This document shows positions 14,792 to 15,460 of a DNA stretch of 64,000 bases, one piece after another (positions within the stretch are counted from its first letter, which is position 1; each line of letters opens with the position of its first letter). The translations under genes were made by a program, and so were the position numbers. The DNA is from an uncultured Verrucomicrobiae bacterium (GTDB lineage: Bacteria > Verrucomicrobiota > Verrucomicrobiia > Chthoniobacterales > UBA10450). The DNA lies in assembly GCA_963726745.1 (NCBI GenBank), contig CAVSDR010000006.1:64001-128000 (forward strand), read 5' to 3'. Below the pieces are notes generated by a model. That model ran no database searches. It was not told where the DNA came from and worked only from the letters and a program-made list of their open reading frames with translations.

Positions 14792-14863
14792 TGTCCCCGG
14801 CGGGAATCGAACCCACATCAAAGGTTTAGGAAACCTCCGTTCTATCCGTTGAACTACGGGGAC
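14792..14863 (-). tRNA. tRNA-Arg (anticodon CCT)
   Basis: Reverse complement GTCCCCGTAGTTCAACGGATAGAACGGAGGTTTCCTAAACCTTTGATGTGGGTTCGATTCCCGCCGGGGACA: acceptor stem GTCCCCG/CGGGGAC, T-loop GGTTCGATTCC, anticodon loop TTCCTAA; CCA not encoded. Confidence 0.96.
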
Positions 14864-15073: not shown

Positions 15074-15112
15074 TCGACAACGACGCCGGCACTTTATATG
15101 TTCACCTGAACA
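15074..15112 (+). promoter_or_regulatory. sigma70-like promoter overlapped by a Verrucomicrobia-type LexA (SOS) box
   Basis: TCGACA (15074-15079), 17-nt spacer, TATGTT (15097-15102); TGTTC-ACCT-GAACA at 15099-15112 is an exact match to TGTTC-N4-GAACA and its last base is the A of the downstream ATG. Confidence 0.8.
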
Positions 15113-15207
15113 TGAAGACTCTCGCGCGCCGCCTCCTCGCCTTGCTTCGCCGCCCCTTTGTCCCTCGCCCCGCTCAACTCGAGCTCCCCCTATGGCCGAA
15201 CAAATAG
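15112..15207 (+). CDS. 31-aa peptide with a QLELPL clamp-binding-like motif
   Basis: MKTLARRLLALLRRPFVPRPAQLELPLWPNK; ATG sits directly at the LexA box/promoter; overlaps the next ORF by 16 nt. Confidence 0.55.
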   Translation: MKTLARRLLALLRRPFVPRPAQLELPLWPNK

Positions 15208-15407
15208 AAAGCCTCCGCTCCGTCCTCAAGCGCATCCGCGACGACGCCCAGGAGGCGCTCGCGATGCTCGCAGCGAGCGGCCCGGCCCGCTCGCTGGCCT
15301 GGCGCTGCGTGCAATGCGGGAGCGTGAAGCACTTCACCCGACCGGCGGTAAAAGAGGTCGCGCCGCCCTGCCCGAAATGTCGCGGGGCGGAGTTTGCTCC
15401 GCACTGA
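15192..15407 (+). CDS. small zinc-ribbon protein (71 aa)
   Basis: N-terminal helix then WRCVQCG...CPKCRG (two CxxC pairs). Confidence 0.7.
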   Translation: MAEQIESLRSVLKRIRDDAQEALAMLAASGPARSLAWRCVQCGSVKHFTRPAVKEVAPPCPKCRGAEFAPH

Positions 15408-15427: not shown

Positions 15428-15460
15428 ACGCGCCGTCCCGGTCAATCCAGGACGGCGCGT
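15428..15460. terminator. GC-rich hairpin between convergent genes
   Basis: 11-bp stem ACGCGCCGTCC/GGACGGCGCGT with an 11-nt loop; no strong U-tract. Confidence 0.5.

What the first reader, a model, noticed from the sequence alone, without database searches (positions are those of the whole stretch)
15074..15407. LexA-boxed, apparently leaderless mini-operon: 31-aa clamp-binding-like peptide plus zinc-ribbon protein
Seen: TGTTCACCTGAACA (15099-15112) overlaps a TCGACA-17-TATGTT promoter and the ATG of MKTLARRLLALLRRPFVPRPAQLELPLWPNK, which overlaps a 71-aa CxxC..CxxC protein. Established: the Verrucomicrobia LexA motif is TGTTC-N4-GAACA; beta-clamp ligands use QL[SD]LF or the hexameric QLxLPL form (E. 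coli Hda has QLSLPL). Inference: a DNA-damage-induced micropeptide that is little more than an amphipathic helix and a clamp-binding motif, possibly a replication checkpoint or polymerase-switch factor, with a Zn-ribbon partner. Standard gene callers would miss it.
Basis: partly seen in the sequence, partly recalled or inferred. Interest (0 to 1): 0.85.

Follow-up and report, generated by a model that had tools for sequence, protein, structure and literature searches.

The report
SOS-induced sliding-clamp-binding micropeptide operon
A group of soil bacteria carries an overlooked, tiny gene that looks switched on by DNA damage and whose 31-residue product is built to plug the docking site of the DNA-replication clamp, which would be a new way for a bacterium to brake or redirect replication, though neither expression nor binding has been measured.

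Summary
A TGTTC-N4-GAACA box (15099-15112) overlaps a sigma-70-like promoter and the ATG of a 31-aa ORF, which overlaps a 71-aa helix plus zinc-ribbon gene. The same box precedes lexA in 20 of 27 and imuA in 23 of 27 family genomes. Among 95 unique loci picked by the zinc-ribbon gene alone, 82 keep the box and 70 keep box, start and Q-L-x-[LF]-x-[LF]. The peptide frame is under purifying selection (dN/dS 0.35; other frames 1.0-1.6). A model places the motif in the canonical pocket of the host's DnaN (0.71, best control 0.00), possibly from memory of solved complexes. Corrections: the conserved N-terminal trait is positive charge, not amphipathicity, and a physical link to the zinc-ribbon protein is untested. 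The unit is patchy (59 of 251 family genomes), often broken, non-syntenic and was not found intact beyond one Chthoniobacterales family. Best reading: an SOS-induced free clamp ligand that competes for DnaN. No expression or binding data exist; no description was found in print.

The parts
15074..15079 (+). -35-like hexamer TCGACA
   Evidence: only promoter-like site in 1 kb; T[GAC]GAC-like element 36-40 nt before the ATG in 48 of 51 relatives of this class (distances)
15097..15102 (+). -10-like hexamer TATGTT, overlapping the left half of the box
   Evidence: A at hexamer position 2 (outside the box) in 44 of 51, T at position 1 in 34 of 51 relatives of this class
15099..15112 (+). LexA operator TGTTC-N4-GAACA covering -10, predicted start site and first base of the ATG
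   Evidence: same box before lexA (20 of 27) and imuA (23 of 27) in the family; present in 82 of 95 unique zinc-ribbon loci; published motif recalled, paper not retrievable
15112..15207 (+). 31-aa micropeptide gene, no Shine-Dalgarno, (near-)leaderless
   Evidence: dN/dS 0.35 (0.25-0.47) for codons before the motif, 23 disjoint pairs; 70 of 82 boxed loci keep start and motif
15112..15174 (+). cationic N-terminal segment, residues 1-21 (net +6; amphipathic in this clade only)
15175..15192 (+). hexameric clamp-binding motif QLELPL, residues 22-27
   Evidence: 60 of 70 fit Q-aliphatic-x-[LM]-x-[FL], 9 have F at position 4; modelled in the DnaN pocket
15192..15407 (+). 71-aa protein: helix 2-28 plus C4 zinc ribbon; unnamed family
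   Evidence: W37, C39, C42, C60, C63 invariant in 92 sequences; dN/dS 0.15
15428..15460 (.). GC-rich hairpin between the zinc-ribbon gene and the convergent TonB-receptor gene; possible transcript end
   Evidence: RNAfold; not scored as a terminator (no T run); conservation not tested

Best explanation
A two-gene SOS unit of one Chthoniobacterales family. LexA sits on the operator that covers the -10 element, start site and start codon. After DNA damage LexA is cleaved and a leaderless or nearly leaderless mRNA is made. Its first ORF gives a 30-50-aa peptide with no enzyme or folded domain: a cationic arm and a hexameric clamp-binding motif. The motif docks in the partner pocket of DnaN and competes with Pol III and other partners, slowing forks or changing who holds the clamp while repair and ImuABC act; the cationic arm adds affinity through DNA, membrane or the acidic clamp surface. 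The overlapping zinc-ribbon gene is translated by coupling and acts in the same process, role open. Shown: anatomy, conservation, selection, motif fit, conserved pocket. Inferred: LexA binding, induction, translation, binding in the cell, braking effect.
For: Box at lexA and imuA family-wide and before two further repair-like genes of this genome. Loci chosen without regard to the peptide: 8 of 10 relatives; 70 of 82 boxed unique loci. Positions 1, 2, 4, 6 fixed while 3 and 5 vary; all six Leu codons used at position 4, E as GAG 32 / GAA 30: protein-level, not a ribosome-binding site. In 13 of 70 the motif lies 60-168 nt from the zinc-ribbon start and still ends in L or F. dN/dS 0.35 against 1.04, 1.60, 1.13 in other frames and 0.98 in upstream DNA. 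Where the usual ATG is lost, an in-frame ATG lies 6 nt upstream in 10 of 13, against 10 of 45 otherwise (p=0.014 after merging five kin). Complex model 0.71, best of 3 controls 0.00, runs agree in at least 95% of contacts, partner pLDDT at least 67; mark reached by 116 of 157 solved and 2 of 215 mismatched pairs; interface is peptide 18-29 on DnaN 171-176, 241-246, 319, 343-345, 357-363, the pocket listed in PMC11139829. That review reports that an expressed bare motif peptide inhibits E. coli growth; Hda QLSLPL binds at 0.44 uM (bioRxiv 10.64898/2026.05.27.728225).
Against: Clamp-peptide complexes are textbook and many clamps are solved (39 distinct sequences), so the model may pass from memory. 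The motif dN/dS (0.06) is biased by my motif filter. 12 of 82 boxed loci failed the peptide test, about half through deletions that keep box and zinc-ribbon gene, and 5 of 30 boxed family loci likewise: the second gene can stand without the peptide. The unit is in only 37 of 124 good genomes and many copies are broken. Hexameric motifs bind the B. subtilis clamp 10-20-fold more weakly, so affinity here is open; 9 of 70 have F at position 4. Binding does not tell blocker from recruiter. Kin are not independent in any count.
Confidence: 0.5

Rival explanations
1. Detachable clamp adaptor: the peptide binds DnaN but recruits rather than blocks, its N-terminal arm holding the zinc-ribbon protein (or another SOS factor) so that the two genes make one clamp-tethered unit.
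For: The genes travel together: both peptide-only hits that lack an intact second gene (L015, L018) show remnants of it. The zinc-ribbon helix is slightly acidic (median -2), the peptide arm cationic. 4 of 146 distant representatives carry the motif in frame before the zinc-ribbon protein.
Against: The four fusions are single records and may be frameshift errors. The arm differs strongly between clades while the helix is conserved. Loci keep the zinc-ribbon gene without peptide. The idea that it replaces a missing ImuB motif failed: the separate ImuB C-half has its own QFSLF.
Confidence: 0.2
2. Selfish toxin-antitoxin-like module: the peptide poisons the clamp, the zinc-ribbon protein neutralises it, and the pair spreads and decays as an addiction cassette under LexA control.
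For: Two small overlapping genes; unrelated neighbours between genera; up to three copies or fragments per genome; this copy groups with another genus and one clade for its own genus is rejected (p-AU 0.0003); peptide loss with the second gene kept fits toxin loss. SocB is a clamp-binding toxin (PMC8610362).
Against: Both genes are repressed by the same LexA box, so no addiction in unstressed cells; the tree mostly follows genus (10 changes, minimum 8, shuffled 20); only 1 integrase and 2 restriction genes among 107 neighbours; no viral copy found.
Confidence: 0.12
3. Leader ORF only: it loads ribosomes on a leaderless mRNA and hands them to the zinc-ribbon gene; the motif is incidental or a stalling signal.
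For: In 57 of 70 loci the motif lies within 40 nt of the second start, and its last codon and the following Trp are dictated by that ATG; no Shine-Dalgarno before the peptide in 70 of 70 (expected, as the box lies there).
Against: The motif persists 60-168 nt away from the second start in 13 of 70; stop position and phase vary (ORF 30-69 aa); the pattern of fixed and free positions is that of a clamp motif; model fit.
Confidence: 0.1
4. SOS membrane peptide or division inhibitor of the TisB, DinQ or SidA kind, acting through its N-terminal helix.
For: LexA-controlled peptides of this size are known (PMC8610362 passages; PMC3567139 listing); one clade has an amphipathic-looking N-terminus.
Against: No hydrophobic transmembrane stretch (best 11-residue window mean hydrophobicity -0.33, net +6); the larger clade is poly-Arg; the most conserved part is the motif.
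Confidence: 0.08

Closest known systems
Hexameric clamp-binding motifs of Hda (QLSLPL), Pol IV (QLVLGL), Pol III alpha C-terminus (QVELEF)
   Same: Same consensus, Q-aliphatic-x-[LM]-x-[FL] (passages of PMC11139829; bioRxiv 10.64898/2026.05.27.728225); modelled in the same pocket.
   Different: Those motifs tether a large enzyme; here the motif is most of the gene product.
SocB of Caulobacter socAB (type VI toxin-antitoxin)
   Same: Chromosomal two-gene unit whose product binds the clamp and blocks elongation (PMC8610362 passages).
   Different: SocB is a full-size protein controlled by SocA-directed proteolysis; here a 31-aa peptide under LexA, no family match; not aligned to SocA/SocB directly.
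SOS small proteins TisB, DinQ, SidA
   Same: LexA-repressed peptides of about 30 aa (passages for TisB, listing for DinQ; SidA recalled).
   Different: They are hydrophobic membrane peptides; this one is cationic with a clamp motif.
Phage Twort Gp168; griselimycin; engineered motif peptides
   Same: Small clamp inhibitors; an expressed bare motif peptide inhibits E. coli growth (PMC11139829).
   Different: Gp168 binds the DNA channel and is phage-made; griselimycin is a secreted cyclic peptide; none is the host's own damage-induced gene.
Eukaryotic p21 and PAF15 (recalled, no call)
   Same: Short, largely unfolded PCNA ligands with basic residues that regulate clamp access after damage.
   Different: No homology; functional analogy only.
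FmdB-type zinc ribbons (TIGR02605, PF09723) and rubredoxin-like domains
   Same: C4 ribbon with weak profile matches.
   Different: Scores far under cut-off (16 against 31.3 bits); extra 27-residue N-terminal helix and a family-specific KHFTRP hairpin.

Membership tests
LexA (SOS) regulon of Verrucomicrobiota | Host lineage has LexA | tested here: met
   TIGR00498 171 bits, cut-off 111; 27 of 30 family genomes; relatives named Chthoniobacterales
LexA (SOS) regulon of Verrucomicrobiota | Same box at lexA and other SOS genes, overlapping the promoter | tested here: met
   20 of 27 lexA (loose pattern), 23 of 27 imuA; overlap with -10
LexA (SOS) regulon of Verrucomicrobiota | LexA binds the site; transcript induced by damage | not testable with these tools
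   needs EMSA and RNA data
Beta-clamp ligands (hexameric motif) | Q-aliphatic-x-[LM]-x-[FL] | tested here: met
   QLELPL here; 60 of 70 canonical, 9 with F at 4, 1 with R at 1; consensus
Beta-clamp ligands (hexameric motif) | Host clamp keeps the pocket | tested here: met
   T171, G173, R175, L176, P241, V246, V357, M359, P360, M361, R362 invariant or nearly so in 30 DnaN; His175 equivalent is Arg; E. coli numbering matched by motif
Beta-clamp ligands (hexameric motif) | Physical binding in the pocket | tested here: inconclusive
   model 0.71 against control 0.00 supports but does not show it; like complexes are solved
Type I SOS membrane toxins (TisB, DinQ) | Hydrophobic transmembrane helix | tested here: not met
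Type I SOS membrane toxins (TisB, DinQ) | Antisense RNA antitoxin | tested here: inconclusive
   no Rfam match above threshold but the tRNA; an undescribed RNA is not excluded
SocAB (type VI toxin-antitoxin) | Homology to SocB/SocA; antitoxin as protease adaptor | not tested
   no direct comparison; no Pfam or NCBIfam family over cut-off
FmdB zinc ribbon (TIGR02605) | Score over curated cut-off | tested here: not met
   16 bits against 31.3; PF09723 18.3 against 34.4
DksA/TraR C4 finger | Profile match and helical C-terminus (recalled); same C-x2-C-x17-C-x2-C spacing prompted the test | tested here: inconclusive
   not among Pfam hits at E<=1; model ends in a strand; not listed in fold searches, which does not exclude it

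The most novel reading that the evidence does not exclude
A bacterial counterpart of p21/PAF15: a chromosomal, LexA-induced micropeptide that is essentially a free clamp-binding motif with a DNA- or membrane-gripping cationic arm, titrating DnaN as a dedicated replication checkpoint or polymerase-exchange switch, with the zinc-ribbon protein setting its off-switch.
Probability: 0.4. Interest if true: 0.88.

Novelty: new variant of a known kind. Interest (0 to 1): 0.76.

Why it matters
Known SOS checkpoints act on division or the membrane; how the clamp is reallotted between replicative and translesion polymerases is an open question usually answered by polymerase numbers alone. A natural 31-aa, damage-induced clamp ligand would be a new regulatory layer and is directly testable with a synthetic peptide and purified DnaN. 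It also adds two unannotated genes to the small SOS regulon of an abundant soil lineage, and offers natural sequence variants of a motif pursued as an antibiotic lead.

Tried and rejected
(1) Peptide supplies a clamp motif missing from the short ImuB: rejected, the separate C-half carries QFSLF. (2) Motif is a disguised Shine-Dalgarno for gene 2: rejected by codon variation and distant copies. (3) Programmed frameshift fusing both ORFs: relative phase varies among loci; not pursued further; no search for longer forms was run beyond. Not found in those searched, not shown absent. (5) Fold searches of the zinc-ribbon model: no Foldseek match at E<=0.001, best Z 2.9; no PHROG at E<=0.001; Atlas gave unnamed Verrucomicrobiota clusters and only sub-threshold scores for the peptide. 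(6) tRNA-linked integration: tRNA in only 4 of 43 loci. (7) Sequencing runs: no RNA holder listed; nothing laid. (8) Erill et al. 2016 not held; seen only in reference lists. (9) Earlier findings: none.

Full report
OBSERVATION. A tRNA-Arg lies upstream and a TonB-receptor gene converges from downstream. The palindrome by itself is not rarer than chance; its meaning comes from position and conservation.

IS IT A LexA BOX? The paper defining the Verrucomicrobia motif could not be read (title seen in reference lists; the motif is recalled and searches for it found nothing), so I tested it independently. The genome has one lexA. The only other exact box lies between lexA and an imuA-like gene (imuA named from position and a sub-threshold RecA match), and variants precede lexA itself and two radical-SAM-like genes. 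In 27 lexA loci from 30 family genomes, 20 have a box about 47 nt before lexA and 23 have one before imuA. Named relatives are Chthoniobacterales. LexA control is therefore well supported; binding is not shown.

IS THE SMALL ORF A GENE? Loci were collected with the zinc-ribbon protein only. Among 60 relatives 10 had it; 8 keep box, ATG and motif, one has the motif without box, one is a fragment. From 80 metagenome loci (best 80 of 210) and 43 genome loci I dropped 3 without the anchor, 7 too short and 18 duplicates; of 95 unique loci 82 have a box and 70 have box, start and [QR][LM]x[LF]x[LF] (62 ATG, 8 ATA/ATT). Motifs seen include QLELNL (39), QLELPL (9), QLELPF (5), QLQFPF (3). In 23 disjoint pairs the codons before the motif have dN/dS 0.35 (bootstrap 0.25-0.47) against 1.04, 1.60 and 1.13 in other frames and 0.98 for upstream DNA; the zinc-ribbon gene has 0.15; the motif 0.06, biased by the filter. 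Box-to-gene distances fall in one phase in 51 of 63 loci. Where the ATG at the box end is lost, an in-frame ATG inside the box is present in 10 of 13 (one further row with a downstream ATG left out) against 10 of 45. Kin are not independent in these counts. Gene callers miss the ORF: 0 of 10 exact peptides are among 15 billion proteins; a profile finds 10 records, 9 with extended starts, against 244 for the second gene.

PROMOTER. Two geometries occur. In this copy's class (51 loci) the -10 ends 10 nt before the ATG, which suggests a leader of 2-4 nt. In the other (16 loci) TTGCC starts at -35 and a T is invariant at -7 from the ATG, placing +1 on the A: leaderless geometry. Both are inferred; no RNA data.

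WHAT THE PEPTIDE LOOKS BUILT FOR. The motif fits the hexameric consensus given in PMC11139829 (passages and section 25 read) in 60 of 70, with F at position 4 in 9; measured hexamers include QLSLPL at 0.44 uM (bioRxiv 10.64898/2026.05.27.728225, passages). It persists 60-168 nt from the second start in 13 of 70, so overlap does not explain it. The host DnaN keeps the pocket, and its own DnaE and DinB carry QVSLF and QLALL. A complex model scored 0.71 against a best control of 0.00, three runs agreeing in at least 95% of contacts, partner pLDDT at least 67; 116 of 157 solved and 2 of 215 mismatched pairs reached the mark; contacts are peptide 18-29 on the canonical pocket. As such complexes are solved many times over, this shows likeness, not binding. 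The N-terminal arm is cationic in 54 of 54 (+3 to +10) but amphipathic in only one clade and not significantly so here (p=0.10).

THE SECOND GENE. AlphaFold gives a helix (2-28) and a ribbon, pLDDT 90. No family passes its cut-off and no fold match stands out. Invariant W37 and four Cys, a basic KHFTRP hairpin would suit nucleic-acid or protein binding (inference). It survives with its box where the peptide is deleted, so it is an SOS gene in its own right.

RANGE AND HISTORY. Matches in 59 of 251 family genomes (37 of 124 good ones, 13 of 36 genera), many partial or broken; not found intact outside the family in 400 class and 400 phylum genomes or in viral contigs. Neighbours (107 ORFs from 31 loci, picked by a heuristic) differ between genera, with 1 integrase and 2 restriction genes. 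The tree mostly follows genus, but this copy groups with another genus: transfer or hidden paralogy. It is an accessory, movable unit. Unpublished genomes G030 and G182 enter the counts and alignments A1-A3; no conclusion rests on them alone, except that G030 is this copy's sister in the tree.

MECHANISM. Most likely (0.5) the peptide is a free clamp ligand made on damage that competes for DnaN; the review reports that an expressed bare motif peptide already inhibits E. coli growth. Rivals: adaptor for the zinc-ribbon protein (0.2), toxin-antitoxin-like cassette (0.12), mere leader ORF (0.1), membrane peptide (0.08). That the peptide binds DnaN at all I put near 0.75.

KNOWN SYSTEMS AND NOVELTY. 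It works like SocB or engineered motif peptides and is regulated like TisB or DinQ (PMC8610362 passages; PMC3567139 listing only; PMC8565304 passages), but is a member of neither. Ten library searches (listings only unless named above) showed no LexA-controlled clamp-motif peptide and nothing on SOS in Chthoniobacterales; most subscription papers, Erill 2016 and all supplements were not seen. The p21/PAF15 analogy is recalled. Verdict: real, undescribed as far as searched, new variant of a known kind; interest 0.76.

Noticed in passing
G000:C6:883092-883694 (+) and C6:873050-873970 (-); L321-L347: ImuB is split: the N-half follows lexA-imuA and stops 164-188 aa after my anchor motif in 18 of 27 lexA loci (others: longer in 1, run off or not detected in 8); in G000 a 306-aa C-half with QFSLF sits 10 kb away, directly before dnaE2.
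   Followed up: partly
G000:C6 upstream of 875928 (-): Degenerate box CGATC-N4-GAACA before a 653-aa repeat-protein gene that precedes imuB-C and dnaE2; may put that operon under LexA.
   Followed up: no
G000:C6:545074 and C3:508533: Box variants directly before two radical-SAM-like genes (SplB-like and DNA-repair type; names recalled from sequence, not tested).
   Followed up: partly
G000:C6:172199-172988 and 869829-873050: recA and the 5' end of dnaE2 read in two frames; probably assembly errors, not checked against reads.
   Followed up: no
P0133, P0144, P0186, P0205: Four records carry the peptide motif fused in frame to the zinc-ribbon protein.
   Followed up: no
L135, L136, L140, L143-L148, L152, L153: A 42-45-aa peptide form with a conserved basic tail after the motif that overlaps no other gene.
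   Followed up: no
window 14792-14863 (-): tRNA-Arg(CCT) about 210 nt upstream, divergent; not a general feature of the unit.
   Followed up: yes
L126, L128; P0280: Copies in records titled Limnocylindria and Blastocatellia; may be labelling or binning errors, or transfer.
   Followed up: no
L215, L220, L269: Viral contigs with a 28-29-aa frame ending in QLTLF or QLDLF after a box-like site; no score with the peptide profile, probably the end of a longer gene.
   Followed up: partly
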